From a virus: a DNA stretch of 40,847 nucleotides. The position numbers and the translations under genes are program-made. Below the pieces are notes generated by a model. It searched no databases, was not told the origin of the DNA, and worked only from the letters and a program-made list of their open reading frames with translations. Location: UHGV virus genome UHGV-0390358; one strand, written 5' to 3'. Shown here in pieces: positions 1 to 40,847 of this stretch (the stretch's first letter is position 1; each line of letters opens with the position of its first letter).

Positions 1-1
1 G

Positions 2-166
2 CCTGGTGCGAATCTCTGGTACTTGAAGGCGGCTCTCGATCACATGATCTTTAACCAGATGCAGGAGTATTTTTCACCAGGCTATTTGCGTAAAATGGAG
101 CAACGTTCGAAGAAAGAGTTTAACCAGACATACTGGTGGCGACCACAGGATGTCACTCCGCAATAA
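2..166 (+). CDS. 3' end of a CDS truncated by the window start; function unknown
   Basis: Open frame from position 2 to TAA at 164-166 (...YLRKMEQRSKKEFNQTYWWRPQDVTPQ*); no start codon in window. Confidence 0.3.
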   Translation, partial: PGANLWYLKAALDHMIFNQMQEYFSPGYLRKMEQRSKKEFNQTYWWRPQDVTPQ

Positions 167-7100: not shown

Positions 7101-7230
7101 CGTTGAAATAACGCCAGCAGGATCTAGATGGGGGGTCAGACCTGATCTCTTATTCTATATCGAGGCAGCATGGCAGCGCAGAGAAATGGATAAGATAAAA
7201 GAGCGGATTCAGTCTCTGGAAGAACGTTAA
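4111..7230 (+). CDS. Tailspike endosialidase (endo-N-acetylneuraminidase) with C-terminal intramolecular chaperone domain
   Basis: 1039 aa; conserved podovirus tailspike N-terminal head-binding region; sialidase Asp-boxes SGDDGKTW and SSDLGTSW; C-terminal HGVIAQQLRDV... autoproteolytic chaperone-type domain. Confidence 0.85.
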   Translation: MTVSTEVDHNEYTGNGVTTSFPYTFRIFRKSDLVVQVSDLNGNVTELVLDTGYTVTGAGTYSGGSVVLPSPLATGWRITIDRVLDVVQETDLRNQGKFFPEVHEDAFDYLTMLIQQCFGWFRRALMKPSLLAKYYDAKQNKISNLADPSFEQDAVNNRSMRNYVDAAIAGVVGGFGWFIQYGSGAVYRTFQDKMRDAISPKDFGAVGDGINDDSTAISACLEASSPVYKIDGLGLTFKVSTLPDVSRFKNARFLFERIPGQPLFYASEDFIQGELFKITDTPWYNAWTQDKTFVYDNVIYAPFMAGDRHGVNNLHVAWVRSGDDGKTWTTPEWLTDLHENYPTVNYHCMCMGVVRNRLFAVIETRTVSGNKLQVAELWDRPMSRSLRVYGGITKAANQQVAYIRITDHGLFAGDFVNFSNSGVTGVTGNMTVTTVIDKNTFTVTTQNTQDVDQNNEGRYWSFGTSFHSSPWRKTSLGTIPSFVDGSTPVTEIHSFATISDNSFAVGYHNGDIGPRELGILYFSDAFGSPGSFVRRRIPAEYEANASEPCVKYYDGILYLTTRGTLSTQPGSSLHRSSDLGTSWNSLRFPNNVHHSNLPFAKVGDELIIFGSERAFGEWEGGEPDNRYAGNYPRTFMTRVNVNEWSLDNVEWVNVTDQIYQGGIVNSAVGVGSVCIKDNWLYYIFGGEDFLNPWSIGDNNRKYPYVHDGHPADLYCFRVKIKQEEFVSRDFVYGATPNRTLPTFMSTSGVRTVPVPVDFTDDVAVQSLTVHAGTSGQVRAEVKLEGNYAIIAKKVPSDDVTAQRLIVSGGETTSSADGAMITLHGSGSSTPRRAVYNALEHLFENGDVKPYLDNVNALGGPGNRFSTVYLGSNPVVTSDGTLKTEPVSPDEALLDAWGDVRYIAYKWLNAVAIKGEEGARIHHGVIAQQLRDVLISHGLMEEESTTCRYAFLCYDDYPAVYDDVITGQREMPLTDNDGSIIVDEDDNPVMVMEDIIERVEITPAGSRWGVRPDLLFYIEAAWQRREMDKIKERIQSLEER

Positions 7231-7536: not shown

Positions 7537-7941
7537 ATGTCTGCTCAAGTAACAAGTGAGCAATTAAATCAGTTGCTTAGTTTTGGTTCTCTTGCTGCGG
7601 TTATTGCAGGTGTCCCTCCGGAGGTTGCTTTAGGGGCTTTGGCTGGGGCGGTAATTTTTGTTACCTCTGCAGTAGAGTACCCCATCCGTCGCCGGGTGCT
7701 CCTTTCGATGCTCAGCTTTCTTTGTGGCCTTCTCTTTTACAAACCAGCAGCATCAATTCTTATCGGCATAGCCAGCCTGATCCCTACCATCACGCAGGAC
7801 TCTTTTGAAAAAGGGATTGTTTTCTCTGCAGGCGCATTCGTGTCAGCAATTGTCGCTGTGCGTATTGGTATATGGCTCTATCACCGTTCCGATAATCCAC
7901 GCGAGTTAATTCCGGGGAGAAAAGACGATGGTAACGCATGA
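7537..7941 (+). CDS. Putative holin-like membrane protein
   Basis: AGGAG ribosome-binding site; 134 aa with several predicted TM segments; first gene of a cassette followed by endolysin and spanins. Confidence 0.45.
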   Translation: MSAQVTSEQLNQLLSFGSLAAVIAGVPPEVALGALAGAVIFVTSAVEYPIRRRVLLSMLSFLCGLLFYKPAASILIGIASLIPTITQDSFEKGIVFSAGAFVSAIVAVRIGIWLYHRSDNPRELIPGRKDDGNA

Positions 7942-8236
7942 GTTTTTTTTGCTTATCACCAATGCAGTTATTTGCACTGGCATAGCAATTCGCGTTGTCA
8001 CATTCCGGCGTAACGGCTCTCAACATCGAAGGTGGGGAGGATGGCTTGCTTATTTCCTGATTGTTGCTGCGGCCAGTATTCCTGTTCGAGTCGCCTATGC
8101 AATCTGGTTACGTACGCCAATGGCTGTGGATTTATCTGAGGTCATTATCAACGCTGTCATGCTGGCTGCGGTTATTAAAACGCGCGGTAACGTCGTTCAA
8201 ATTTTTAAAGTATCGAGGTCTAAACATGGAGATTAA
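7928..8236 (+). CDS. Putative holin/antiholin-like small membrane protein
   Basis: 102 aa hydrophobic protein; start overlaps previous gene; immediately upstream of endolysin. Confidence 0.4.
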
Positions 8237-8855
8237 ACAATTCCAGCGAGCTGCTGGTACCAGCGAGGCACTGGCCGCACGCTGGTTCTCGCATATAACT
8301 TCTGCGATGAAAGAGTTTGGTATCAGCAAAGCAGAAGATCAGGCAATGTTTATTGCTCAAGTCGGGCATGAGTCTGGGGGCTTCACCAGGTTGCAGGAGA
8401 ATTTCAACTACAGTGTCAGCGGACTGGCTAACTTCGTTCGGGCTGGGCGTCTCACTCAGGGGCAGGCTAATGCACTGGGGCGCCGTGCTGGTGAACCACC
8501 ATTGCCACTTGAGCGCCAGCGCGCGATCGCAAATCTGGTATACAGCAAACGCATGGGGAACAATGCCCCTGGTGATGGCTGGAATTACCGAGGGCGCGGA
8601 CTTATCCAGATTACCGGTTTGAATAACTATCGTGATTGCGGAAACGGTCTGAAGGTTGACCTGCTGGAGAGCCCTGAACTGCTGGCGCAGGACGAATATG
8701 CGGCTCGTAGCGCGGCGTGGTTCTTCGCCAGCAAAGGATGCATGAAGTATACCGGCGATATTGCACGTGTAACTCTGATTATCAATGGTGGCAGAAACGG
8801 TATCGACGACCGGCGTGCGCGGTACATCACAGCAAGTAAGGTACTGGCGGTATGA
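8226..8855 (+). CDS. Endolysin, glycoside hydrolase family 19 (chitinase-like) type
   Basis: ATG at 8226 (ribosome-binding site GAGG); motifs [12 protein letters not shown] and [12 protein letters not shown] typical of GH19 phage endolysins. Confidence 0.8.
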
Positions 8856-9349
8856 TCTGGGCATTTGTAAAAGCATACCGTAAACAGTTACTTATCGTGG
8901 CGATGCTTGCTGTTCTGGTCATATCAGGAGTTGTTGCCTGGAATGTGCACGGCATCCGTCAGTACGATGCCGGGTATGCGCAGGCGAAGGAAGATCAGAA
9001 ACAGGCTGATGATAAGTTAAGGTCACAGCGTGAGCAGGAGAAAACACAAATTGAACGTGAAGCACAATCCCGTATCGATGCGGCGCGTGCTGATGCTGAG
9101 TATGCTAATTCCGCTGCTGACAGCATGCGCGCCGAGCTTGACAAAACCAGGCGGCTCGCCGAACACTATACCGGATCTTTCCCCCCTGGCACGCCAGCCA
9201 GCAAGGTCATCGGTGTGCTCGCCGACATGCTTGAAGAAAGCAACCGAGTTTACAACGCAACAGCAGCTGAGGCTGAAAAGTATCGTATCGCAGGGGAATT
9301 CTGCGAGCAGCAATACGATTCACTGAAGAAGCAAAAATCGTGGCACTGA
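8852..9349 (+). CDS. Rz-like inner-membrane spanin
   Basis: N-terminal TM helix followed by charged coiled-coil region; directly after endolysin. Confidence 0.65.
9078..9326 (+). CDS. Rz1-like outer-membrane lipoprotein spanin, embedded in the +1 frame of the Rz-like gene
   Basis: Embedded ORF with lipobox LLTAC, Pro/Ser-rich; start codon choice uncertain. Confidence 0.4.
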   Translation: MRRVLMLSMLIPLLTACAPSLTKPGGSPNTIPDLSPLARQPARSSVCSPTCLKKATEFTTQQQLRLKSIVSQGNSASSNTIH

Positions 9350-9643: not shown

Positions 9644-10894
9644 GTGCTTACCGATACAAAATTAAAAAACCTCAAGCCGCAGGACAAACTGTACAAGGTC
9701 TCCGATCGTGACGGGCTGTATGTAGCTGTGCTTACGTCAGGCACGGTCTCGTTTCGCTATGACTACCGTATCAACGGTCGCCGCGAAACACTGGTAATCG
9801 GGCAGTATGGGCGTGACGGTATCAGCCTGGCAGAAGCGCGAGAAGAACTGATTGCTGCAAAGAAGCTGCTTAAAGCAGGCCAGTCACCGGCTGCGGCTAA
9901 ACGTGACGGTATCAAAAAGATTCGTGGTGCCGAGACGTTTGCGGTACATACCGACAGTTATATGAAACACGTCATCCTGGCTGACAGTACCCGCGCAATG
10001 AAACAGGCGGTGATCGACCGTGACATACTTCCGGTTCTTGGCAATAAAATGATGGCTGAAATTACCACATCGATGGTTCGTGATTTGTGTGACCGGATTG
10101 TCGAACGCGGTGGCCGGGCAACAGCAGTACAGGCCAGGGAGATCATCAGCAGCGTATACCGTCACGCCAATGACCGTGGTCATGGTTTGTTTAATCCTGC
10201 GGCTGACATTAAACCTTCGTCTATCGCCATATTTAAACCACGAGAGCGAACACTGACACCAGAAGAAATTGGCCTGTTCTTCCGCACGCTGGATGCCATT
10301 GGTGCTATGGGCACTATGAAAATGGCTTTAAAGCTGGTGCTTATCACTATGGTTCGTAAAGGCGAATTCACCAATGCAACGTGGGATGAAATAGATTTTA
10401 AAAAATGGACATGGACAATTCCTTCAGACCGCATGAAGGGAAGCCGGGCGCACGTTATTTACCTGCCTAAACAGGCACAGGATATATTGGTTGGGTTGCA
10501 GATGTGCGCTGGTGGAAGTGAATATCTGGTTCCTGGTCGTTACAATTTCCGGAAGCCATTATCTAATGCCGCGCTGAACTCTCTGATCGACAGAACGGTG
10601 AAAATAATAAATGAAGATGGTGAGCATATTCAGGACTTCACCGTACACGATATGCGCCGTACAGCCAGTACGTTGTTGCATGAGGCTGGTTATCCTTCAG
10701 ACTGGATTGAAAAGGCTCTGGCACATGAGCAGAAAGGTGTGCGCGCCGTATATAACAAAGCGGAATACGCCAGACAGCGCGCCTACATGTTGCAGCAGTG
10801 GGCCGATATGATTGATTCCTGGATTAACGGGGAGCATACGGATCTGATTCCGTTCTCCCCGTCGAAGTTTGAGAAGTGGATGGCGGGGGAATAA
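9644..10894 (+). CDS. int: Tyrosine site-specific integrase
   Basis: GTG start at 9644; N-terminal LTDTKLKNLKP...YRINGRRETLVIG arm-binding-type domain; C-terminal catalytic region HDMRRTASTLL...AVYNKAEY. Confidence 0.85.
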   Translation: MLTDTKLKNLKPQDKLYKVSDRDGLYVAVLTSGTVSFRYDYRINGRRETLVIGQYGRDGISLAEAREELIAAKKLLKAGQSPAAAKRDGIKKIRGAETFAVHTDSYMKHVILADSTRAMKQAVIDRDILPVLGNKMMAEITTSMVRDLCDRIVERGGRATAVQAREIISSVYRHANDRGHGLFNPAADIKPSSIAIFKPRERTLTPEEIGLFFRTLDAIGAMGTMKMALKLVLITMVRKGEFTNATWDEIDFKKWTWTIPSDRMKGSRAHVIYLPKQAQDILVGLQMCAGGSEYLVPGRYNFRKPLSNAALNSLIDRTVKIINEDGEHIQDFTVHDMRRTASTLLHEAGYPSDWIEKALAHEQKGVRAVYNKAEYARQRAYMLQQWADMIDSWINGEHTDLIPFSPSKFEKWMAGE

Positions 10895-24530: not shown

Positions 24531-24607
24531 TGGCGTGGCATGCAGGATTCGAACCTGCGACCAACCGCTTAGAAGGCGGTTGCTCTGTCCAACTGAGCTA
24601 ATGCCAC
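24531..24607 (-). tRNA. tRNA-Arg (anticodon UCU)
   Basis: Reverse complement folds as a 77-nt cloverleaf: 7-bp acceptor stem GTGGCAT/ATGCCAC, D-arm GCTC..GAGC, anticodon loop CTTCTAA, T-arm GCAGG-TTCGAAT-CCTGC, 3' CCA; differs from E. coli argU in the acceptor stem. Confidence 0.9.
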
Positions 24608-30741: not shown

Positions 30742-33212
30742 TGGCTATCAGTTGGATCCAGCCCAGCTTTGCTGGTGGTGAGATTGGACCGTCGTTGTAC
30801 GGACGTATCGACATGGCGAAGTACCAGGTGGCATTGCGCAAGTGCGATAATTTTATCGTGCGGCAGTATGGCGGCGTTGAGAATCGACCTGGTACGCGTT
30901 TTGTCGGTGCCGCCAAATACCCAAATCGGAAATGCCGTCTGATCCCGTTCCAGTTCTCGACGGTTCAGACTTATGCTCTGGAGTTCGGACACCAGTACAT
31001 GCGCGTTATCAAAGATGGTGCGTTGGTGCTGAACAGCAGCAATGTTATTTATGAAATTGCCACGCCATATACTGAAGCCGATCTGTTCCGAATTAAATTC
31101 ACGCAAAGTGCCGACGTGCTTACGCTGGTTCACCCGGCATACCCGCCGAAAGAGTTGCGCCGATATGCTCATGACAACTGGCAACTGGTTGATGTGGTAA
31201 CGAAGAACGGGCCATTTGAAGATATCAATATTGACGAGTCAGTGACGGTTTATGCCAGCGCCAGCACCGGGACAATTACGTTAACGGCAAGCGCCTCTAT
31301 TTTTGGCGCGGAGCAGGTAGGCAAATTGTTCTATCTGGAACAGCCTGCAGTGGATTCAGTGCCGGTATGGGAAACCAGTAAGAGTACGTCGATTGGCGAT
31401 ATTCGCCGTGCAGACAGTAACTACTATCGCGCCGTTACAGCAGGCAAAACAGGCACTTTGCGCCCTTCGCATACAGAAGGCACATCATGGGATGGCTGGG
31501 GCGGATCCGGTGATGATGATACCGGCATTGAGTGGGAGTATCTGCACAGTGGTTTTGGCATTGCCCGTATCTCTGCTGCAAATGGAACTACTGCAACTGC
31601 CGAGGTGATTTCCTATATCCCTTCGCAGGTAGTTGGCGAGGATAATGCCAGCTATAAATGGGCTAAATATGCCTGGAACAGTATTAACGGTTATCCTGGC
31701 ACTGTTGTTTATTATCAACAACGTCTTTACTTCGCCGCATCGACTGCGTTCCCTCAGACTATCTGGGCCAGCCGTACTGGGGATTATAAGGATTTTGGCA
31801 AAAGCAATCCTACGCAGGATGACGACAGAATTATCTACACCTATGCCGGGCGTCAGGTTAATGAGATCCGCCACCTGATTGATGTCGGTTCGCTGGTGGC
31901 GCTGACTTCCGGAGGTGAGTACGTCATCACCGGCGACCAGAACAAAGTGTTAACCCCATCATCATTTGCATTCAGCTCTCAGGGATCAAATGGCTCGAGC
32001 AATGTCCCACCAATTGCCGTGGCGAATATTGCTCTGTTCGTCCAGGAGAAAGGCAGTGTTGTCCGTGATCTGGCCTACTCATTCGATGTTGACGGCTATC
32101 AGGGGAACGACCTGACCATCCTTGCCAATCATCTTTTTCAGAAGCACAGCATTGTTGACTGGTGCTTCTCGATAGTCCCTTACTCCAGCGCCTTCTGCAT
32201 TCGTGATGACGGTAAATTACTGGTGATGACCTATTTGCGTGATCAGCAGGTTTTTGCATGGGCACCACAATCCAGTACTGGAAAATATGAAAGCACATGC
32301 AGTATCAGCGAAGGCAATGAAGATGCGGTGTATTTCGTCGTTAACCGAACCGTTAACGGGCAAACAGTGAGATACATCGAGCGACTGTCCAGCCGTTTAT
32401 TTACCAGCGATGAAGATGCTTTCTTTGTTGATTCTGGCCTTAGCTATGATGGAAGAAATACGTCTGACAGAACGATGATCATCACTGGTGGTTCTGGCGA
32501 ATGGGATTACCGCGCGGAATATACAATCAGTGTTTCTGGTGGTGCGTACTTCACCAGTAGTGATGTCGGCGCGCAACTACAGTTCCCTTATACCGGAACT
32601 GATCCTGATACTGGCGATGAGGTGTCAAAAGAATTACGTTGCGACATTATTTCTGTAACCAGCAATACCGCTGTAGTGGTTCGTGCTAACAGGAACGTCC
32701 CGCCATCCCTCAGGAATGTGGCCACCACGAACTGGCAGATGGCGCGCCGGACATTTGGAGGCCTGTCTCATCTTGAAGGCCAGACCGTAAACATTCTCTC
32801 TGATGCGAACGTGGAACCACAGAAAGTGGTTTCCGGAGGTGCCGTCACGCTGGAATCTCCGGGGGCTGTAGTGCACATCGGCCTGCCAATAACTGCTGAA
32901 TTCGAAACACTGGATATCAACATTAACGGACAGGAAACGCTACTGGACAAAAAACAGGTGATCCCCTCCGTTACTCTGGTTGTGAATGCCAGTCGCGGCA
33001 TCTGGGCGACTACGCCCGGCGGTAAATGGTACGAATATCCACAGCGTGAATTCGAGTTCTACGATGATCCTGTTGATGATGCTACCGGAAAAGTAGAAGT
33101 GAAACTGGACAGTAACTGGGGCAAAAACGGACGTGCAAAAATCCGTCAGCTTGATCCGTTGCCGCTGTCTGTTCTTGCCGTTATTCCTCGCCTTACTGTT
33201 GGGGGGTTCTGA
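30741..33212 (+). CDS. Tail tubular protein B / nozzle (T7 gp12-like)
   Basis: 823 aa; N-terminus MAISWIQPSFAGGEIGP resembles T7 gp12 start; position. Confidence 0.6.
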   Translation: MAISWIQPSFAGGEIGPSLYGRIDMAKYQVALRKCDNFIVRQYGGVENRPGTRFVGAAKYPNRKCRLIPFQFSTVQTYALEFGHQYMRVIKDGALVLNSSNVIYEIATPYTEADLFRIKFTQSADVLTLVHPAYPPKELRRYAHDNWQLVDVVTKNGPFEDINIDESVTVYASASTGTITLTASASIFGAEQVGKLFYLEQPAVDSVPVWETSKSTSIGDIRRADSNYYRAVTAGKTGTLRPSHTEGTSWDGWGGSGDDDTGIEWEYLHSGFGIARISAANGTTATAEVISYIPSQVVGEDNASYKWAKYAWNSINGYPGTVVYYQQRLYFAASTAFPQTIWASRTGDYKDFGKSNPTQDDDRIIYTYAGRQVNEIRHLIDVGSLVALTSGGEYVITGDQNKVLTPSSFAFSSQGSNGSSNVPPIAVANIALFVQEKGSVVRDLAYSFDVDGYQGNDLTILANHLFQKHSIVDWCFSIVPYSSAFCIRDDGKLLVMTYLRDQQVFAWAPQSSTGKYESTCSISEGNEDAVYFVVNRTVNGQTVRYIERLSSRLFTSDEDAFFVDSGLSYDGRNTSDRTMIITGGSGEWDYRAEYTISVSGGAYFTSSDVGAQLQFPYTGTDPDTGDEVSKELRCDIISVTSNTAVVVRANRNVPPSLRNVATTNWQMARRTFGGLSHLEGQTVNILSDANVEPQKVVSGGAVTLESPGAVVHIGLPITAEFETLDININGQETLLDKKQVIPSVTLVVNASRGIWATTPGGKWYEYPQREFEFYDDPVDDATGKVEVKLDSNWGKNGRAKIRQLDPLPLSVLAVIPRLTVGGF

Positions 33213-33676
33213 TGATCGATGTTCAAATTATTCCCGCAACCGAAGAGCATCTTCAGATGATTTTGCCGGATGTTCGTCAGGCTGATATTGACGAACTGTA
33301 TGCGGTATCACTGATGACTACCGAAGATGCGCTGCGTGTTGGTCTGCGTACTGCGACTATGGCCTGGTCAGGATTTGCGAACGGAGAACTGGTAACCATG
33401 TTTGGCGTATCTCCGGCGTCAATGATCGGTGGCAATGGTACGCCCTGGCTGGTCGGAACCAGCCGTATCGAAAAATATCAGAAGACATTTCTTCGCCACT
33501 GCCGCCCTGTATTGCAGCAGATGCTGGCAGTTTATCCGCGCCTGGAAAACTATGTCGATGAGCGAAACCATGTTGCCAAAGCATGGCTGCACTGGCTTGG
33601 ATTCAGGCTTGAAGAAGCCGCGCCTTATGGTGCTCTTGGTCTTAATTTCCACAGATTTCACATGGAGAGAAAATAA
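33212..33676 (+). CDS. Internal virion protein (gp13-like position)
   Basis: 154 aa, start overlaps previous stop. Confidence 0.4.
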   Translation: MIDVQIIPATEEHLQMILPDVRQADIDELYAVSLMTTEDALRVGLRTATMAWSGFANGELVTMFGVSPASMIGGNGTPWLVGTSRIEKYQKTFLRHCRPVLQQMLAVYPRLENYVDERNHVAKAWLHWLGFRLEEAAPYGALGLNFHRFHMERK

Positions 33677-34221
33677 TGTGCGATCCGGTTATTGCTGGTG
33701 GCGCAATGCTCGCCATGAGTGGCATTCAGGCATACACCCAGTACCAACAGGGAAAGTATGCCTCGAAGGTTGCAGAAGCGAACGCAGATATAGCCACAGC
33801 TCAGGCAAATGATGCAATAAACAGAGGTAACGCTGAAGCTGAGCAACGGCGCAGAGAGACCCGACAGCGGCTTGGTACACAGGCGGCGACAATGGGGGCT
33901 ACCGGCGCTGATTTATCTACAGGTAACGCGCTGGATATATTTGGCGACACTGCCCAGTTTGGCGCTCTTGATTCTCTGACGACGGTGAATAACGCGCAAC
34001 GCGAGGCTTACGGTTATCAGGTTCAGGCTGCCAACTATAAAGCAGAAGCCAGTTCAGCCCGTAAACAGGGGAATGTGGGAGCAGCAACAACATTGCTCAC
34101 TGCGCCTCTGAAGGCATACGGTGCGTACCAGATGTTTGGTGGGACGTGGAGTCCGTTTACTCAAAGCACCCCTGCGCCAATCGGGGCAGCAGCAGGAACC
34201 AGATTACCCGGAGGATTATAA
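33676..34221 (+). CDS. Internal virion protein (gp14-like position)
   Basis: 181 aa, Ala/Gln-rich. Confidence 0.4.
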   Translation: MCDPVIAGGAMLAMSGIQAYTQYQQGKYASKVAEANADIATAQANDAINRGNAEAEQRRRETRQRLGTQAATMGATGADLSTGNALDIFGDTAQFGALDSLTTVNNAQREAYGYQVQAANYKAEASSARKQGNVGAATTLLTAPLKAYGAYQMFGGTWSPFTQSTPAPIGAAAGTRLPGGL

Positions 34222-36734
34222 TGCCAGTCGTACCAACAGTATCCGGCCGTCAGGTTCAGAGCCGTGGAGTTCAGTCAGCAGGCTTGCAGACGTTTTCTCA
34301 GCCAGGTATTGGTGATGCTTTTGTTCGGGCAGGGACAGAGGCAATTGATGTTTTTGGTCAGGCAAAACAGCGTGCCAATATCGCTCTGGCTCAGGAGGCA
34401 TCTCTTAACCTCAGTCAGATAAGCAGTGATCTGCTGAATAATCCTGAAACAGGATTGCTTAACCTGAAAGGGAAAAATGCTATTGGAAAAGGTCAGGAGT
34501 ATACGCAGCAGTTTGATGCTCAGGTCGAACAACTGGCTATGTCGCTGCCGGATGAACAGGCTCGTAATGCTTTCATGCAGCAGGCGCAGCAGCAGCGCAT
34601 TCAGTTCACTACGCAGGCAGGGCGGCACGAGATAGGGCAAATAAATGCCTACGAAGAAGGCCAGTTTCAGGCTACGCTGCTGAACAATGGTAAAAATGCC
34701 GCAGCATTGTATGGCGACAACGCCGCATACGTATTGGCTAATAAGCAAACTTTCCAGCAAATTGAGGATTACGGCATTGCACATGGCTGGAGTGACGAGC
34801 AAATCCAGGCCAAGAAAATCGAGTTTAAAGAGAAGGTTGCTGATGCTGCATTGTCCCAGTGGTCGGCAAACAATGCGACCGCATTCATCCAAAGTAATGG
34901 CGAGTTAAGTGATACTGCTGCTGGAGCTCGCCGTGCTGTAGCAGATAGTGACTCTTCCGAGCGTGCCCGTGGCATACGCAACAATAACCCAGGAAATCTC
35001 GAATACAGCAAAACTAATCCGTGGGTAGGCCAGACCGGTGATGATGGTCGATTTGCTAAATTCGAAACACCTGAACACGGGATTCGTGCATTAGGGCGGA
35101 ACCTGATGTCGTATCAGAGGCAGGGTATTGATACCGTCAGCGAGATAATTAATCGCTGGGCACCGCCTACTGATAAAAATGACACTATGTCGTATATCAA
35201 AGCAGTGTGCGAACAACTTGGCGTTTCTGCTGATGAGCCTCTCGATGCATCTAATCCTGATACCCTGAAGGCGCTTTGTGCAGCCATTATCCATCATGAG
35301 AACGGTAGCCAGCCATACAGTGATCAGCAGTTAACTGCTGGTGTCAGTGCAGCACTTGGTTTATCAACAATTCCAACCAACACCAAACGCTATACCGGTA
35401 ATGCAGCATTCGATGCGGCATCTCCTGAGGCGCAGGCAAGTTTTATGCGACAGGCGGATCAACTGCGTCGGCAGCAGCAGGCTGAATATAAAACGATGAT
35501 TGACAGCAAGGTTCGCGATGCGACAGCTGCGTATATGCGGGGCGTTGAATTTCCTAACCCACCTGGTGAGGCTGATTTTATTGCAGCTTATGGAGTCAGA
35601 GAAGGAAACCTGCGATATACCGAGTTCAGAAATACGCAAATCGCCGGACAGTATATAGGCTCTTTCCGCAACATGCCGACAAGCAGCATTACAGCATATG
35701 TTGAGCAATTACGCCCGGATACTGGTGAGACAGGGGAGGGTTATGCGGCACGAGCCGCTCTTTATGACAACGTTGTGTCGGCTGCAAGTCAGGTGATAAA
35801 GCAGCGACAGGCTGATCCTGTACAGTTCTCTCTTGCCGCCGGACAGGCAAAGCCTATCGACATGAGCAATAAGGATAACTTTGGACAGAGCGTTGCCTTG
35901 CGTGCTGCTCAGGTCAGTGACCTTGCTAAGTCATATGGCACTCCACTGACGTTCTTTTCCAAAGACGAGGCCAATCAGATCGGTGTTTTCTTTCGTGATG
36001 CTCCAGTTTCCCAACAGGCAGCATATCTCGATACCATCAGGCAGAGCACTGGTGGTGGGCAGGTGTATATGTCAGCACTACAGCAGATCAGTGCCAACGC
36101 TCCATCTGCTGCCGTTGCCGGGATACTGATGGACAAGCCTGGTGGTATTTTGGCAGAAAAAAACTGGTTTAATCCGGATGTTTCCGTGTCTCCTGAAACC
36201 GCTGCGCAGACAATTCTTACTGGCGCGGCGGCTCGTAAAGGTACTGATGATGCGAAAGGTATTCCGATGCCTAAAGATGCTGATCTTCGCCTTGAGTTTT
36301 CTGACATGGTGAAGGATGCATTTGCTGGTGATGCTCAGGGGGCATCAATGGCATACGAGATCGCAAAGGACTATTACGCTGGTGTGATGGCGAAAAAAGG
36401 CGTGATATCAGGCGAAATTGACACTGATATCTGGAAGCAGGCTGTTAACGTAGCTACAGGTGGCGTGCATGACTATAACGGAATGGGGAATGTCCTTTTG
36501 CCGTGGGGAATGTCTGCAGAGCAATTCGATAAGCAGGTTAATCAGGCTTGGAATGAACAAGTGGTCGGCACCGGGATAAAAACACCGCCTGGTCAGTATG
36601 GTTTGCAAAGTTACGGCGATAGTCAGTACCTGGTGAAACTTGGTACTGGTTATCTGCTGAAAGATGATGGTTCTCCTGTTGTTCTTGATCTGACACAGAA
36701 GCGTCAGAGATTCTCCGGAGATATTCCGCAATGA
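34221..36734 (+). CDS. Large internal (ejected) virion protein with conserved central domain; possible virion-associated peptidoglycan hydrolase
   Basis: ATG at 34221 with GGAGGA ribosome-binding site, overlapping previous stop; conserved-looking block RGIRNNNPGNLEYSKTNPWVGQ... that I cannot assign by eye. Confidence 0.5.
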   Translation: MPVVPTVSGRQVQSRGVQSAGLQTFSQPGIGDAFVRAGTEAIDVFGQAKQRANIALAQEASLNLSQISSDLLNNPETGLLNLKGKNAIGKGQEYTQQFDAQVEQLAMSLPDEQARNAFMQQAQQQRIQFTTQAGRHEIGQINAYEEGQFQATLLNNGKNAAALYGDNAAYVLANKQTFQQIEDYGIAHGWSDEQIQAKKIEFKEKVADAALSQWSANNATAFIQSNGELSDTAAGARRAVADSDSSERARGIRNNNPGNLEYSKTNPWVGQTGDDGRFAKFETPEHGIRALGRNLMSYQRQGIDTVSEIINRWAPPTDKNDTMSYIKAVCEQLGVSADEPLDASNPDTLKALCAAIIHHENGSQPYSDQQLTAGVSAALGLSTIPTNTKRYTGNAAFDAASPEAQASFMRQADQLRRQQQAEYKTMIDSKVRDATAAYMRGVEFPNPPGEADFIAAYGVREGNLRYTEFRNTQIAGQYIGSFRNMPTSSITAYVEQLRPDTGETGEGYAARAALYDNVVSAASQVIKQRQADPVQFSLAAGQAKPIDMSNKDNFGQSVALRAAQVSDLAKSYGTPLTFFSKDEANQIGVFFRDAPVSQQAAYLDTIRQSTGGGQVYMSALQQISANAPSAAVAGILMDKPGGILAEKNWFNPDVSVSPETAAQTILTGAAARKGTDDAKGIPMPKDADLRLEFSDMVKDAFAGDAQGASMAYEIAKDYYAGVMAKKGVISGEIDTDIWKQAVNVATGGVHDYNGMGNVLLPWGMSAEQFDKQVNQAWNEQVVGTGIKTPPGQYGLQSYGDSQYLVKLGTGYLLKDDGSPVVLDLTQKRQRFSGDIPQ

Positions 36735-38533
36735 GTTACTTTGGCCTTAATCCAGTAAACCAGAATCAGCAACTTGACGAAGCAGCATCAAATCCAGCGG
36801 GCTTTAACAGCGATGTTGGTTTTTTCGACAATGCTGTAGGAGCGGCATTGTCTGGTTTGTACTCCGGGCTGGTGGCAAAGCCAGATCAGTTGCTATGGGC
36901 AGGGATGGATAAAATCGTATCCCCGATTGCTCAGTTTATTAACGAAAACACCTCGCTCAATGATACTTCAGTTTCATACATTGCCGAGCAGAGAAAACTA
37001 GCAGAGCAGCAGGTTAAGCGGCTGACGCCTGATGCCGCGACAACCGGAACCGCCGGGCAGGTTCTTTATGGGTTGTTCGATATGGGCGGGCAGGCTGTTG
37101 TCGGTACAACGCTCGGTGGTCCTGTCGGAGGTGCAGCGGCGGTAACTTCGCTACAGGGTTTTTCTGAGTTTGAACGGTTGACAGCACAGGGTGTTGATTT
37201 CAGGACGGCGCAGGAAGCGGGATTAGTGCAGGGCATTACTGCTGGTGCCGGAACACTGATCCCTATGAGCCTCGGGTTACGTGCTGGTGGTGCGCTGGCG
37301 GAAGGTGTGGCGGCTCAGCTTGCGCGGACGGGTGAGAGTTCAGTGCGACGCGCCGCAGCAACAGCAGTACGTGCAACGCCAGATATTGCCTATGCCGCAG
37401 GTACAAATATTGCGTTCGGTATGGCACAGCGTGGGCTTACTGCAAAAACACTTCGTGATGGTGGCTATAGCGAAATGGCTAACCAATATGATGTGTTGGA
37501 TCGACAGGCAATTGCTATTGATGCTGTTCTTGGGGTGGCGTTTGGTGGTGTCGGCAGATTTATTAACTCTCGCGGCGAGTCTACAAACGCACCAAATTTT
37601 TCACCAGTTGATATCGATGCTGCACTGGCGGCGAATGCCGCTCATCATGCTGAAATTGATATTGCGCCCGGCGTGCCGATCAACGTGCTTTCGCGCAATT
37701 CTCACATTCAGGCTCTGCGAAAAGCTATGTCTGATGTTAGCCAGGGGAGACCTGTAGACGTTGCCAGCATTGTTGAGTCTGCATCTTTCAGTGAAATTCC
37801 TGGGCGCAAGAGTCTGCTGTCTCAGGCAGTTAATGAGGCTCTGTCATCTGTAGATGATGGAGTAACGGCGCGCGCTATAGAAAATCGGTTGCTTGAAGAA
37901 CAGGCCGCGCAGCTTTTGCCGCGTGGAGATAGACAGGTTTACCAGTCTGAAATCGCTAATAGCCAACGAATTATTGAAAATCTCACTGAACAGCGTGCAC
38001 AAATTCTTGCAGAAGAGCCAACCGGTAGCGGTAAAGCTTTGTCTCGTGCTCGATCAGATAAACAGGCCAGACTTCGCGATATTGATCAACGAATCCGGCA
38101 GGCACAAGAACGCCTGGAATTTTCCCGTAACGCGTTGGCACCGCACGAGCCTGGCGGTCAGCTTTTTGAAGCTCGAGCAGAACTGGCTCGGAGACAGCAG
38201 GCAGAAAGTGAACTTAATGCTCAGGCTGTTTCATTCTATAAAACAGCAGAGGTCAGGACGCCAGACGAAGTAGCTCCTTTTGAGCCTGATAAAATATTGC
38301 AACAGGCAGAACAAAAAATGCTGTCAGATAAGGCAGGAGATATTGATCTGCGCATAGCTGAAGACTCGCTGCTTGAATCACCTGACATGATAATCACCGT
38401 GCTGGATGATGATGGTAATCCACAATCGCGCAGTGCGCGTGAAGTACTGGATGAAGCGAACAGGGAAAGTGAGCAGGCAATACAGGATTCCAGCCTGTTT
38501 GATGTCGCTGTGGCGTGTTTCTTGAGAGGTTAA
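36731..38533 (+). CDS. Internal virion protein
   Basis: 600 aa, Gly/Ala-rich, overlapping start. Confidence 0.45.
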   Translation: MSYFGLNPVNQNQQLDEAASNPAGFNSDVGFFDNAVGAALSGLYSGLVAKPDQLLWAGMDKIVSPIAQFINENTSLNDTSVSYIAEQRKLAEQQVKRLTPDAATTGTAGQVLYGLFDMGGQAVVGTTLGGPVGGAAAVTSLQGFSEFERLTAQGVDFRTAQEAGLVQGITAGAGTLIPMSLGLRAGGALAEGVAAQLARTGESSVRRAAATAVRATPDIAYAAGTNIAFGMAQRGLTAKTLRDGGYSEMANQYDVLDRQAIAIDAVLGVAFGGVGRFINSRGESTNAPNFSPVDIDAALAANAAHHAEIDIAPGVPINVLSRNSHIQALRKAMSDVSQGRPVDVASIVESASFSEIPGRKSLLSQAVNEALSSVDDGVTARAIENRLLEEQAAQLLPRGDRQVYQSEIANSQRIIENLTEQRAQILAEEPTGSGKALSRARSDKQARLRDIDQRIRQAQERLEFSRNALAPHEPGGQLFEARAELARRQQAESELNAQAVSFYKTAEVRTPDEVAPFEPDKILQQAEQKMLSDKAGDIDLRIAEDSLLESPDMIITVLDDDGNPQSRSAREVLDEANRESEQAIQDSSLFDVAVACFLRG

Positions 38534-38538
38534 ATTAA

Positions 38539-40847
38539 ATGAGACAGGAATGTATACAAGCGGTCCAGCAGGCGGCGCAGCGCACTTTAACGGCGCGAGA
38601 AATACAGAACATTGAAGACCGCATTTATCGAAATATGCGCTCCATTGCTCGTGATGACCCGATCTCGTGGCGACAACTTTCCGAATCAGAGCGGCTATAT
38701 CGAGCAGCACAATTGGCATCTGAAGAATTACAGCGAGAAGCGGCATTAAAGAAACGTCGTGTGGCTCTCACTATAGCCGCGCGTCAGAGATTGGATAAAT
38801 TTATCAATAGCTATCAAGGGGCTGATGGGAAACTTGGTGCTCTTAACCGTACTATAGCTTTTAATGCAGACGGTAAATCTAATTTCCTCTCTGTTGAATC
38901 CAGAACAAAAGCCACCCGTGATTATGCATTGAGTCAATTGCAGGAGGCATTCGAAGCAGTTGATCCTCGCTTTTTTGGTCTGTTTGAAGATGAAGCGGGC
39001 GTACGTGACCTGGTATATGAAATGCGGGGGCAAAATACTGGCAATGCTAAAGCAAGGAAAGGTGCTAAGGCGTGGAGAGAAGTTACAGAGCTGCTGCGCC
39101 GCCGGTTTAATGATGCTGGTGGGGACATTGGCTATCTCGAAAACTGGGGGATCCCTCAACATCATTCTATGGAAAAGGTTGGGGCGGTATCAAAGGATAA
39201 GTGGGTTAGCGATGTTATAGGTAAGCTGGATCGCAAATATTATACCCGAGCCGATGGACAACTGATGAACGATGCCGAGTTGTCTGAATTTCTTGGAGAG
39301 GCTTATAACACGATCGCTACTGGTGGGCTGAATAAGCTTACTGATACCGGAATGCGAATTTCCGGCGCACGTGCTAACCGTGGTAATGCATCACGACAGA
39401 TACATTTCAAAGATGCAGATTCCTATCTGCAATATCAGCAACTTTATGGCGATCGCTCTCTATGGGAAATCATGGTCGGTCACCTGGAAGGTATCAGTAA
39501 AGATATTGCACTGGTGGAAACATATGGCCCAAACCCCGATCATGTTTTCCGCTCTCTTCTTGATCAGGTGAAGGCAGAAACGGCAACAGCTAACCCGAGT
39601 AAAACCGGTAAAGTCGAGCGGCTGGCGAACAACACAGAGAATCTGTACAACTTTATTTCCGGAAAGACACAGCCTGTAGCGAATCCGCACATCGCGCGAT
39701 GGTCTGACAATATCCGCAACTGGCTGGTTGCCAGCAGACTCGGATCCGCGTTGCTGTCATCGTTCTCTGATCTTGGAACCATGTATCTGTCTGCGAAGGT
39801 TACCAACCTTCCAATGAACCAGTTATTCCGCAACCAGCTTGAAGCTATGGACCCAACGAACCGTACAGAACTTGCGCGGGCGCGCCGCGCTGGTCTGGCG
39901 ATGGAATCTCTACTTGGCAGCGTTAACCGCTGGGCGATGGATAATATGGGGCCGTCAGTGTCTCGTTGGGCGGCAACGGCGGTAATGCGTGCCAGTGGGC
40001 TTACAGCATGGTCAGATGCGCACAAGCGCGCCTATGGCGTAACCATGATGGGAAGCCTGGGAGAAGTAGTGTCACGGACACCAGACCTTCGTAGCCTCGA
40101 TGACTCTGATTTTCGTATCCTGAAAAGCAAAGGGATTACTGACACAGACTGGAGCGTATGGAAGCTGGCGAAACAGGAGGACTGGGGGAACGGTAATAAT
40201 ACGATGCTGACACCGGAAAGCATTATGCGTATCCCTGATTCAGCAGTTAAACATCTTGGTGAGCCTGAACGCGTGAAATTTGAGGCAATGCGTAAACTGC
40301 TCGGTGCCGTAACTGAAGAAGTTGATATGGCTGTTATTACACCGGGAGCACGTGAGCAACTGATAACCGGTTCTGGTATTCAGCGTGGAACATGGAAAGG
40401 TGAATTAACGAGAAGTGTTTTCCTGTTTAAATCGTTCCCTATCTCGGTTGTTATGCGTCACTGGTCACGCGCTATGGGTATGCCGTCTGCTGGTGGGCGT
40501 GCGGCATATATTGCGACGTTTATTGCCAGTACGACCATTCTTGGCGCTTTGTCGCAGCAACTTAACGACCTTGCGTCTGGTCGTAATCCTCGAGAGATGA
40601 CAGGAGAAGATGCCGCAAAATTCTGGCTTGGTGCTTTACTGAAAGGTGGTGGTCTTGGCCTTTACGGTGACTTTTTATTGTCAGATCACACTAGGTACGG
40701 AAGCGGCGCGCTGGCGTCGATGCTTGGCCCGGTAGCTGGTCTGGTTGATGACGTAGTGAAGATTGCTCAGGGCATACCGTTAAATGCTGTGGAAGGGAAG
40801 AGTGAGCAGACTGGTGGTGATCTGGTGAAGCTGGGGAAAGGTTTGAT
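38539..40847 (+). CDS. Large internal virion / DNA-injection protein (gp16-like), 3'-truncated by window end
   Basis: ATG at 38539; frame appears open to the window end (inferred partly from absence of long alternative-frame ORFs in the track). Confidence 0.5.
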   Translation, partial: MRQECIQAVQQAAQRTLTAREIQNIEDRIYRNMRSIARDDPISWRQLSESERLYRAAQLASEELQREAALKKRRVALTIAARQRLDKFINSYQGADGKLGALNRTIAFNADGKSNFLSVESRTKATRDYALSQLQEAFEAVDPRFFGLFEDEAGVRDLVYEMRGQNTGNAKARKGAKAWREVTELLRRRFNDAGGDIGYLENWGIPQHHSMEKVGAVSKDKWVSDVIGKLDRKYYTRADGQLMNDAELSEFLGEAYNTIATGGLNKLTDTGMRISGARANRGNASRQIHFKDADSYLQYQQLYGDRSLWEIMVGHLEGISKDIALVETYGPNPDHVFRSLLDQVKAETATANPSKTGKVERLANNTENLYNFISGKTQPVANPHIARWSDNIRNWLVASRLGSALLSSFSDLGTMYLSAKVTNLPMNQLFRNQLEAMDPTNRTELARARRAGLAMESLLGSVNRWAMDNMGPSVSRWAATAVMRASGLTAWSDAHKRAYGVTMMGSLGEVVSRTPDLRSLDDSDFRILKSKGITDTDWSVWKLAKQEDWGNGNNTMLTPESIMRIPDSAVKHLGEPERVKFEAMRKLLGAVTEEVDMAVITPGAREQLITGSGIQRGTWKGELTRSVFLFKSFPISVVMRHWSRAMGMPSAGGRAAYIATFIASTTILGALSQQLNDLASGRNPREMTGEDAAKFWLGALLKGGGLGLYGDFLLSDHTRYGSGALASMLGPVAGLVDDVVKIAQGIPLNAVEGKSEQTGGDLVKLGKGL

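What the first reader, a model, noticed from the sequence alone, without database searches (positions are those of the whole stretch)
34221..36734. Conserved-looking central block in a large ejected virion protein
The segment RGIRNNNPGNLEYSKTNPWVGQTGDDGRFAKFETPEHGIRALG... looks like an enzymatic or binding domain inside an otherwise low-complexity internal protein. T7-like phages carry a cell-wall-degrading domain in one ejected protein; this may be the counterpart here, but I cannot assign it.
Basis: inference. Interest (0 to 1): 0.3.

Follow-up and report, generated by a model that had tools for sequence, protein, structure and literature searches.

The report
Cell-wall-cutting domain in phage entry protein
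The conserved block is the signature of a known type of peptidoglycan-cutting enzyme domain (the "Enc34 endolysin" type) built into a large virion protein of an epsilon15/phiV10-like E. coli phage, most likely used to open the cell wall during DNA injection; this is an expected feature of short-tailed phages, not a surprise.

Summary
Window 34221-36734 (+) is one real gene of 837 aa. It is the orthologue of phiV10 p18 and epsilon15 gp15 (Uetakevirus). The quoted block (aa 250-292) is its most conserved stretch: 98% identical to epsilon15 gp15 over aa 251-300, against 24% in the C-terminal third.

The block opens a ~130-aa globular domain (aa ~249-380). This domain belongs to the PHA02564 / Enc34-endolysin family:
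- phmmer E 2.7e-17 to PDB 7q47.
- An AlphaFold model (pLDDT 89) matches only 7q47 (Foldseek E 3.5e-11, TM 0.68-0.75).
- The proposed catalytic Trp/Tyr/Glu are present as W313/Y325/E360.

The same domain sits at the N-terminus of the T7-like Kayfunavirus gp16 (PDB 9vvp, E 4.7e-38). Relatives of this protein carry GH108 or SLT domains in the same central slot.

The phage has a separate holin/GH19-endolysin/spanin cassette, so this domain most likely acts at entry.

- The domain is not homologous to T7's SLT domain.
- Family biochemistry points to a glucosaminidase, not a transglycosylase.
- "Ejected" is inferred, not shown.

This is a new member of a known kind, of low interest.

The parts
34221..36734 (+). 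Gene for the 837-aa virion protein (orthologue of phiV10 p18 / epsilon15 gp15). It lies at the gp15 position of a T7-like order: gp11, gp12, gp13, gp14, gp15, gp16.
   Evidence: ORF and start context. It is 99.2% identical in DNA to vB_EcoP_ZX5 and 98.3% to phiV10. phrog_992 matches the full length. It is 59% identical in protein to epsilon15 gp15.
34335..34910 (+). N-terminal helical module (aa ~39-230). It is preceded by a disordered N-terminus (aa 1-38).
   Evidence: The full-length AlphaFold model shows long helices with pLDDT 80-93. PHROG families 1044, 19141, 36437 and 10475 share this N-terminal module.
34911..34967 (+). Flexible linker (aa ~231-249). It is the site where relatives carry an extra ~104-aa module.
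   Evidence: pLDDT is below 50 over aa 234-258. The 935-aa E. coli prophage version has its insert between aa 242 and 249.
34965..35360 (+). Enc34/PHA02564-type peptidoglycan hydrolase domain (aa ~249-380).
   Evidence: phmmer gives 7q47 E 2.7e-17 and 9vvp E 4.7e-38. The AF2 domain model has pLDDT 89.4 and pTM 0.79. In Foldseek, only 7q47 is significant: E 3.5e-11, TM 0.68-0.75. BFVD matches include 'Internal virion protein D' and 'Virion protein' entries.
35157..35159 (+). W313 codon (NRWAPP), equivalent to Enc34 Trp79.
   Evidence: Alignment to 7q47, whose chain numbering is +1 relative to the paper. W in 69 of 72 homologues. Role proposed in PMC8943055.
35193..35195 (+). Y325 codon (MSYIKA), equivalent to Enc34 Tyr95.
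   Evidence: Y in 71 of 72 homologues.
35298..35300 (+). E360 codon (HHENG), equivalent to the proposed catalytic Glu131 of Enc34.
   Evidence: E in 70 of 72 homologues. In the Enc34 structure, Glu131 superimposes on the catalytic Glu of GH73/GH23 enzymes (PMC8943055).
35403..36731 (+). C-terminal module (aa ~395-837). It is helical to about aa 620, then mixed alpha/beta. It is the part most widely shared with other podophage proteins.
   Evidence: Many 850-1100-aa representatives match only query aa ~400-830. The AF2 model is helical with pLDDT 76-88 to about aa 540 and low-confidence beyond. Only 24% identical to epsilon15 gp15 after aa 541.
33676..34221 (+). Upstream gp14-like internal virion protein (context).
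   Evidence: Pfam T7_gp14, E 2.5e-7, 31.2 bits, above the cut-off of 27. phrog_418 'internal virion protein'.
36731..38533 (+). Downstream 600-aa protein (epsilon15 gp16-like). It is translationally coupled to the gene under study (context).
   Evidence: ATGA overlap. phrog_1145. phiV10 p19.
8226..8855 (+). The phage's own lysis endolysin (GH19), in a holin / endolysin / Rz cassette at 7928-9349. It shows that the gp15-like domain is not needed for lysis from within.
   Evidence: Pfam Glyco_hydro_19, E 7.3e-9. Holin Phage_holin_3_7, E 5e-27. DUF2514 Rz-like, E 2e-21. The phiV10 annotation agrees.

Best explanation
The block is the N-terminal signature of a ~130-aa peptidoglycan glycosidase domain of the Enc34-endolysin / PHA02564 type. 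This fold is all-helical, resembles the alpha-lobe of lysozyme, and is a circularly permuted relative of GH73/GH23.

The domain is inserted, between flexible linkers, into the middle of a mostly helical 837-aa virion protein. That protein occupies the gp15 position of the ejection-protein operon of an epsilon15/phiV10-like temperate podophage.

**Proposed mechanism.**
1. The protein is packaged in the virion (inferred from orthologues).
2. After adsorption it leaves through the tail, or sits at its tip, together with the gp14-like, gp16-like and gp17-like proteins (inferred by analogy with T7 and from epsilon15 tomography as cited in reviews).
3. Its hydrolase domain cuts glycan strands locally, using E360 as catalytic acid with W313 and Y325 positioning the substrate (inferred from conservation).
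4. This lets the trans-envelope DNA conduit pass the murein layer.

The bond cleaved is more likely GlcNAc-MurNAc (glucosaminidase) than a lytic-transglycosylase reaction. That rests on biochemistry of the family member M4Lys, not on anything shown for this protein.
For: **Family membership**
- phmmer to the Enc34 catalytic domain 7q47 gives E 2.7e-17.
- The AF2 model (pLDDT 89.4) matches only 7q47 in the PDB: E 3.5e-11, TM 0.68-0.75.
- W313, Y325 and E360 align with Enc34 Trp79, Tyr95 and Glu131, and are kept in 69-71 of 72 homologues.

**The family is muralytic**
- Enc34 ORF39deltaC lyses outer-membrane-permeabilised E. coli, P. aeruginosa and Hafnia (PMC8943055).
- M4Lys-deltaTMD degrades purified peptidoglycan and releases GlcNAc (PMC7143992).

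**Entry role**
- The same domain is the N-terminus of the gp16-position internal virion protein of T7-like Kayfunaviruses. 9vvp Gp29 scores E 4.7e-38, and LM33_P1 gp43 is annotated as an internal virion protein with endolysin domain.
- All ten relatives tested that share only the C-terminal module carry Glyco_hydro_108 or SLT at the equivalent central position; one of the SLT matches falls just under Pfam's cut-off.
- The gene lies in a translationally coupled structural operon, directly after a T7_gp14-family protein.
- The phage has its own holin/GH19 endolysin/spanin cassette elsewhere.
- A review documents that the hydrolase domain moves between gp16 and gp15 homologues, as in K1E and K1-5 gp35 (PMC8954989).

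**Weak fold hint**
- The two best PDB matches of the full-length model are T7 ejectosome chains 7k5c_A and 6yt5_A.
Against: - No enzymatic or virion-location data exist for this protein in anything I could read.
- Enc34's catalytic residues were assigned by superposition, not by mutagenesis (PMC8943055).
- Similarity to T7 gp15 is not established. hhalign gives E 0.36, and the Foldseek TM-scores are only 0.14-0.17.
- Older epsilon15 work, as cited in PMC5850374 and PMC12391199, assigned the internal core to gp17 and put gp15 in the tail hub or tube. The protein may therefore be tail-mounted rather than ejected from the head.
- T7's transglycosylase is needed only under some growth conditions (PMC8954989), so the domain may be dispensable in the laboratory.
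Confidence: 0.85

Rival explanations
1. The protein is a fixed tail-hub or tail-tube component rather than an internal protein ejected from the head. The hydrolase domain would still act at entry, but as a tail-tip enzyme, as in phi29 gp13 or T5 Pb2.
For: Reviews citing Jiang 2006 and Guichard 2013 assign the epsilon15 internal core to gp17 and place gp15 in the tail hub or tube (PMC5850374; PMC12391199). No significant sequence similarity to T7 gp15 was found.
Against: The window has clear gp11-like and gp12-like tail tubular proteins that should form the adaptor and nozzle. The gene follows a T7_gp14-family protein. The same domain in Kayfunavirus lies in gp16, a core protein, and PDB 9vvp holds 4 chains of it, which fits a gp16 tetramer. 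The best fold matches of the full-length model are T7 ejectosome chains.
Confidence: 0.2
2. The domain is a catalytically inactive remnant. It would serve only as a structural or peptidoglycan-binding element of the conduit.
For: No activity data exist for this protein. T7's transglycosylase activity is conditionally dispensable (PMC8954989).
Against: All three proposed active-site residues and the whole RGxRNNNPGN signature are intact and near-invariant across relatives 38-65% identical. The domain is the most conserved part of the protein against epsilon15.
Confidence: 0.07
3. It is a lytic transglycosylase of the SLT/GH23 type, as annotated for epsilon15 gp15 (HHpred to SltB 4anr) and for many Kayfunavirus gp16 proteins ('peptidoglycan lytic exotransglycosylase').
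Against: There is no Pfam SLT hit at E <= 0.1. Foldseek finds no GH23 structure at a significant level. The helix order is permuted relative to GH23/GH73 (PMC8943055). M4Lys muropeptide analysis indicates GlcNAc release, which is glucosaminidase activity (PMC7143992).
Confidence: 0.07
4. It acts at the end of infection as a (second) endolysin, as the stand-alone homologues in chi-like siphophages do.
For: Stand-alone and TMD-fused homologues are true endolysins (PMC8943055, PMC7143992). PHROG labels include 'endolysin'.
Against: It is embedded in an 837-aa structural protein inside the tail / internal-protein operon. A complete holin/GH19/Rz cassette exists at 7928-9349. The orthologues are annotated as structural or virion proteins.
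Confidence: 0.03

Closest known systems
Enc34 ORF39 endolysin catalytic domain (PDB 7q47) and M4Lys of phage BSPM4; CDD family PHA02564 'virion protein V'
   Same: The domain family is the same: about 36-40% identity, a predicted fold with TM 0.68-0.75, and conserved Trp/Tyr/Glu and the RGIRNNNPGN signature.
   Different: Those are ~26-kDa lysis-cassette enzymes with a C-terminal transmembrane domain. Here the domain is internal to an 837-aa virion protein and has no TMD.
gp16-position internal virion protein D of Kayfunavirus (K1F-like T7 relatives), e.g. LM33_P1 gp43; PDB 9vvp 'Gp29'
   Same: The same Enc34-type domain, 51-56% identical, in a protein of the ejection operon.
   Different: There it is at the extreme N-terminus of the 1295-aa gp16 homologue. 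Here it is in the middle of the gp15-position protein. The flanking sequences are unrelated.
T7 gp16 N-terminal lytic transglycosylase domain (SLT/GH23, catalytic E37)
   Same: Functional analogue: a murein-cleaving domain carried into the periplasm by an ejection protein (PMC8954989).
   Different: A different fold family, with no Pfam SLT hit. It is in a different carrier protein, and probably cleaves a different bond.
K1E / K1-5 gp35 (gp15-like ejection protein with lysozyme activity)
   Same: The precedent for the hydrolase residing in the gp15-position protein rather than in gp16 (PMC8954989).
   Different: Not compared here at sequence level. SP6-like phages are a different lineage.
PM2 structural protein P5 and autolykivirus 'peptidoglycan hydrolase'
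   Same: The same domain, at 38% identity. P5 was modelled on 7q47 with W/Y/E conserved (bioRxiv 10.1101/2022.07.18.500477). phiV10 p18 was originally annotated by its similarity to P5.
   Different: A small stand-alone protein of tailless membrane-containing phages.
epsilon15 gp15 (AAO06078.1), annotated 'putative lytic transglycosylase'
   Same: The orthologue: 59% identical overall and about 86% in the domain, with the same gene order.
   Different: Its C-terminal third is only 24% identical. Its annotation names a different enzyme class from the one the evidence here indicates.

Membership tests
Enc34-type / PHA02564 peptidoglycan hydrolase domain | Significant sequence similarity to characterised members. 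| tested here: met
   phmmer E 2.7e-17 to 7q47. tblastn gives 39-44% identity to chi-like phage endolysins. The CDD model itself is not available here, and Pfam and NCBIfam have no model for it.
Enc34-type / PHA02564 peptidoglycan hydrolase domain | Helical alpha-lobe-like fold with a long alpha1-alpha2 loop and no beta-lobe. | tested here: met
   The AF2 model has pLDDT 89.4 and five main helices, plus a short hairpin in the long loop. Foldseek E 3.5e-11, TM 0.68-0.75 to 7q47, with no other significant PDB hit.
Enc34-type / PHA02564 peptidoglycan hydrolase domain | Conserved Trp79 / Tyr95 / Glu131 in the groove. | tested here: met
   W313, Y325 and E360 align to these residues. They are conserved in 69, 71 and 70 of 72 homologues. 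Their position in the modelled groove was not inspected, because no coordinates were accessible.
Enc34-type / PHA02564 peptidoglycan hydrolase domain | Muralytic activity. | not testable with these tools
   Needs a zymogram or turbidity assay with the purified domain.
SLT / GH23 lytic transglycosylase (T7 gp16 N-terminal type) | Match to the SLT profile, with the catalytic Glu at the end of the first core helix followed by the ES motif. | tested here: not met
   No Pfam family at E <= 0.1. No GH23 structure among significant Foldseek hits. hhalign against T7 gp16 gives E 0.43.
T7 gp15-like periplasmic-tunnel ejection protein | Gene directly downstream of a gp14-family gene in the tail / internal-protein operon. 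| tested here: met
   The upstream gene hits Pfam T7_gp14 above threshold. The order is gp11-, gp12-, gp13-, gp14-like and then this gene.
T7 gp15-like periplasmic-tunnel ejection protein | Detectable homology to T7 gp15. | tested here: inconclusive
   hhalign of the family profile against T7 gp15 gives E 0.36. Foldseek with the full-length model (mean pLDDT 66) puts the T7 ejectosome chains 7k5c_A (E 1.9e-3) and 6yt5_A (E 1e-2) first, but with TM 0.14-0.17.
T7 gp15-like periplasmic-tunnel ejection protein | Packaged inside the capsid and ejected into the envelope. | not testable with these tools
   The literature on epsilon15 is ambiguous: the core is assigned to gp17, and gp15 to the hub or tube (PMC5850374, PMC12391199).
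Phage lysis-cassette endolysin | Encoded next to holin and spanin genes as a small soluble or membrane-tethered enzyme. | tested here: not met
   The gene lies in the structural operon. The lysis cassette with a GH19 endolysin is at 7928-9349.

The most novel reading that the evidence does not exclude
The central position of this widespread podophage virion-protein family may be a hot-swappable 'cell-wall cassette'. Observed fillings are the Enc34 type, GH108, SLT, or nothing. In many relatives it also carries an accessory ~104-aa module of unknown function (GNINLFNRP...TGKHLG), inserted exactly at the linker. In that reading, epsilon15-like and K1F-like phages breach murein with a glucosaminidase rather than the textbook lytic transglycosylase. 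The cassette choice, and the unknown module, could tune entry to host cell-wall chemistry or growth state.
Probability: 0.3. Interest if true: 0.4.

Novelty: new member of a known kind. Interest (0 to 1): 0.2.

Why it matters
It gives a precise, testable annotation to a protein carried by thousands of E. coli and Salmonella prophages. It is currently labelled 'head protein', 'hypothetical protein' or 'lytic transglycosylase'. The better label is a virion-borne Enc34-type peptidoglycan hydrolase with candidate active-site residues W313, Y325 and E360.

It also shows that one enzyme family serves three roles in different phages:
- endolysin (chi-like phages)
- structural lysin (PM2 P5)
- ejection-protein domain (K1F-like gp16, epsilon15-like gp15)

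Many database entries probably name the wrong reaction chemistry. None of this changes how podophage entry is understood.

Tried and rejected
1. **Misidentified PDB entry.** I first took PDB 7q47 to be the Pae87 lysozyme of phage JG004 (Pfam Muramidase family). Reading that paper showed its entries are 7q4s and 7q4t. 7q47 is the Enc34 endolysin domain, so the Pae87 lead was dropped.
2. **Curated profile libraries.** Pfam and NCBIfam scans of the whole protein found no family. The domain has no model in those libraries.
3. **PDB 9vvp.** I found no paper for it. The gp29 of phage PhiXacm4-11 is a 223-aa adaptor and is unrelated. I identified 9vvp instead by tblastn as a Kayfunavirus gp16 homologue.
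4. **Homology to T7 gp15 or gp16.** Profile comparison was not significant. Only a weak fold-level hint remains.
5. **Primary epsilon15 papers.** Jiang 2006, Chang 2010 and Guichard 2013 are not held. The virion location therefore rests on reviews.
6. **Full-length homologue search.** It returned almost only near-identical E. coli prophage proteins. The full-length AlphaFold model therefore had a shallow alignment and is unreliable after about aa 540.
7. **The 104-aa insert of relatives.** No Pfam or PDB match, and only phrog_19413 of unknown function.
Full report
**What the window is**

The 40,847-base window is a complete, circularly permuted genome of a temperate epsilon15/phiV10-like podophage (genus Uetakevirus).
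- The gene under study is 99.2% identical in DNA to Escherichia phage vB_EcoP_ZX5, 98.3% to phiV10, and about 75% to Salmonella phage epsilon15 over its first 1.5 kb.
- The last ORF starts at 38539, runs off the end of the window, and continues in frame at bases 1-166. Joined, it gives an 824-aa protein matching phiV10 p20.

**The observation**

Window 34221-36734 (+) is a single ORF of 837 codons.
- Its ATG has a GGAGGA Shine-Dalgarno sequence 6 nt upstream.
- The ATG overlaps the stop of the upstream gene by one base (TAATG). Its own stop overlaps the ATG of the downstream gene (ATGA). The genes are therefore translationally coupled.
- The quoted sequence is aa 250-292.
- It is the most conserved stretch of the protein. 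Against epsilon15 gp15, aa 251-300 are 98% identical, aa 1-540 are 72-86%, and aa 541-837 about 24%.
- In an alignment of 72 relatives only 38-65% identical, the motif R-G-x-R-N-N-N-P-G-N and W268, G270, F281, G287 and R289 are invariant or nearly so.
- The flanks are A/Q/G-rich with somewhat lower sequence entropy. They are nevertheless conserved and predicted helical, so 'low-complexity' overstates it.

**What the block is**

Pfam and NCBIfam have no model that matches. A sequence search of the PDB gives two strong hits for aa 249-398:
- 9vvp chain L, 'Gp29', 1295 aa, E 4.7e-38.
- 7q47, 'Endolysin', E 2.7e-17.

7q47 is the catalytic domain of the unusual endolysin ORF39 of Hafnia phage Enc34, CDD family PHA02564 (PMC8943055).
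- That domain lyses outer-membrane-permeabilised E. coli, P. aeruginosa and Hafnia.
- Its Glu131, Trp79 and Tyr95 superimpose on catalytically important residues of those families.

The homologous M4Lys of phage BSPM4 degrades purified peptidoglycan. Its muropeptide products lack GlcNAc, which suggests N-acetylglucosaminidase activity (PMC7143992).

In the window protein the three residues are W313 (NRWAPP), Y325 (MSYIKA) and E360 (HHENG). All three map with the same +1 offset between chain numbering and paper numbering. They are kept in 69, 71 and 70 of 72 homologues.

An AlphaFold2 model of aa 236-410, built on that alignment, has mean pLDDT 89.4 and pTM 0.79. In a Foldseek search of the PDB it matches only 7q47 at a significant level: E 3.5e-11, TM 0.68-0.75. 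In the viral structure library it matches 'Internal virion protein D' and 'Virion protein' entries, among others.

The proposed catalytic glutamate lies about 70-100 residues further on.

**Where the domain occurs**

tblastn finds the domain in about 750-830 phage records:
- as the endolysin of chi-like siphophages;
- as a small protein of D3112/MP22-like Pseudomonas phages;
- as structural protein P5 of PM2 and the hydrolase of autolykiviruses;
- at the extreme N-terminus of the gp16-position 'internal virion protein D' of T7-like Kayfunaviruses.

P5 was already modelled on 7q47 by Yutin et al. (bioRxiv 10.1101/2022.07.18.500477).

9vvp Gp29 is one of the Kayfunavirus proteins. Its aligned segment is 98-99% identical to Kayfunavirus genomes. 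In LM33_P1 the match begins about 15 codons into the 1295-aa gp43, which follows gp13-, gp14- and gp15-like genes.

**Architecture and the 'slot' argument**

A full-length AlphaFold model has a shallow alignment and mean pLDDT 66. It shows:
- a disordered N-terminus (aa 1-38);
- long helices at aa 39-230 (pLDDT 80-93);
- a low-confidence linker at aa 234-258;
- the globular domain at aa 260-380;
- further helices from aa 395 to about 620, of which only aa 395-540 are confidently modelled (pLDDT 76-88); the model is unreliable beyond aa 540.

An exhaustive search of 1.84 billion representative proteins finds 12,747 clusters at E <= 1e-3 and 324 at E <= 1e-30. Many 850-1100-aa proteins match only query aa ~400-830.

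I scanned ten of these with Pfam. All ten carry another peptidoglycan-cleaving domain at the equivalent central position, about aa 240-380:
- Glyco_hydro_108 in five.
- SLT in five, one of them just below the cut-off.

Two further variants fit the same pattern:
- A Pseudomonas phage homologue of 678 aa, in the same gene order after a T7_gp14-family protein, has no detectable lytic domain.
- The commonest E. coli prophage version (935 aa) is 96-99% identical to the window protein but has an extra ~104-aa module exactly at the upstream linker.

The central region thus behaves as an exchangeable cell-wall-degrading cassette in a conserved helical carrier. This is independent support for the function.

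**Why entry and not lysis**

- The gene sits in the order gp11-like, gp12-like tail tubular proteins, gp13-like, gp14-like (Pfam T7_gp14, E 2.5e-7, above threshold), this gene, then gp16-like and gp17-like.
- The phage has a separate lysis cassette at 7928-9349: a holin, a GH19 endolysin and an Rz-like spanin.
- A review of podophage ejection proteins notes that the hydrolase domain of T7 gp16 is found on the gp15 homologue in K1E and K1-5. It treats such swapping as typical (PMC8954989).

**Caveats**

- No data on this protein's activity or location were available.
- Homology of the carrier to T7 gp15 is not established. hhalign gives E 0.36. The two best PDB matches of the full-length model are T7 ejectosome chains 7k5c_A and 6yt5_A, but with TM-scores of only 0.14-0.17.
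- Reviews citing the primary epsilon15 papers, which I could not read, assign the internal core to gp17 and place gp15 in the tail hub or tube. 'Ejected' is therefore an inference. A tail-mounted enzyme would serve the same purpose.
- The annotation 'lytic transglycosylase', given to epsilon15 gp15 and to many Kayfunavirus gp16 proteins, is not supported. There is no SLT profile match, and the only product analysis in the family points to a glucosaminidase (PMC7143992).

**Verdict**

The feature is a new, uncharacterised member of a known enzyme family, in a known kind of role: a virion-associated peptidoglycan hydrolase of a podophage ejection or tail protein.

It is useful for annotation, and mildly interesting for the cassette-like modularity and the probable mis-annotation of the chemistry. 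It would not surprise a specialist.

Noticed in passing
relatives only: P0122 aa 243-346, inserted between window aa 242 and 249 (window nt ~34946-34967): The commonest E. coli prophage version of this protein (935 aa) and SPN1S-type Salmonella Uetakeviruses carry an extra ~104-aa module (…GNINLFNRPSVKNEDGTISTVRTISI…TGKHLGIFDNPENATAYAEKLH…) exactly at the linker before the hydrolase domain. It also occurs in 'IVP-C-like' and 'DNA transfer' proteins of other podophages. It has no Pfam or PDB match, and only phrog_19413, of unknown function.
   Followed up: partly
window 4111-7230 (+): The tailspike is an endosialidase (End_N_terminal, End_beta_propel E 6e-233, End_tail_spike, Peptidase_S74 chaperone). 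This is a K1-capsule-specific spike on an epsilon15-like chassis. It was already described for the near-identical phage vB_EcoP_ZX5 (PMC9782041). phiV10 has an O157-specific spike plus an O-acetyltransferase instead.
   Followed up: yes
window 38539-40847 joined to 1-166 (+): The gp17-like gene is split by the ends of the window. Joining end to start gives an intact 824-aa ORF matching phiV10 p20. The window is therefore a whole circularly permuted or circularised phage genome, with the integrase (9644-10894) internal.
   Followed up: yes
window 35841-36731 (aa 541-837): There is a sharp mosaic boundary inside the gene. Identity to epsilon15 gp15 falls from 72-98% to about 24% after about aa 540, while Salmonella phages PAT1 and 65FD stay about 83% identical over the full length. 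The C-terminal third may co-vary with the partner proteins gp16 and gp17.
   Followed up: partly
Kayfunavirus records, e.g. L004 4956-8843 (LM33_P1 gp43): Many T7-like Kayfunavirus gp16 homologues are annotated 'peptidoglycan lytic exotransglycosylase', although their N-terminal domain is the Enc34 type and not SLT. This is probably annotation carried over from T7 gp16.
   Followed up: partly
window 33212-33676 (+): The gp13-position protein (phrog_308 'internal virion protein') has only a sub-threshold Pfam Phage_T7_Gp13 hit (E 0.088). Its epsilon15 orthologue is annotated by HHpred as GNAT acetyltransferase-like.
   Followed up: no
window 24531-24607 (-): A single tRNA-Arg (anticodon TCT) gene lies between the terminase and portal regions, on the opposite strand.
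   Followed up: no
PV067916.1 (Microviridae sp.), 4804-5070: There is a weak tblastn match (E 1e-6, 36% identity, query aa 255-344) of the hydrolase domain in a 5.2-kb Microviridae record with no annotated feature under it.
   Followed up: no
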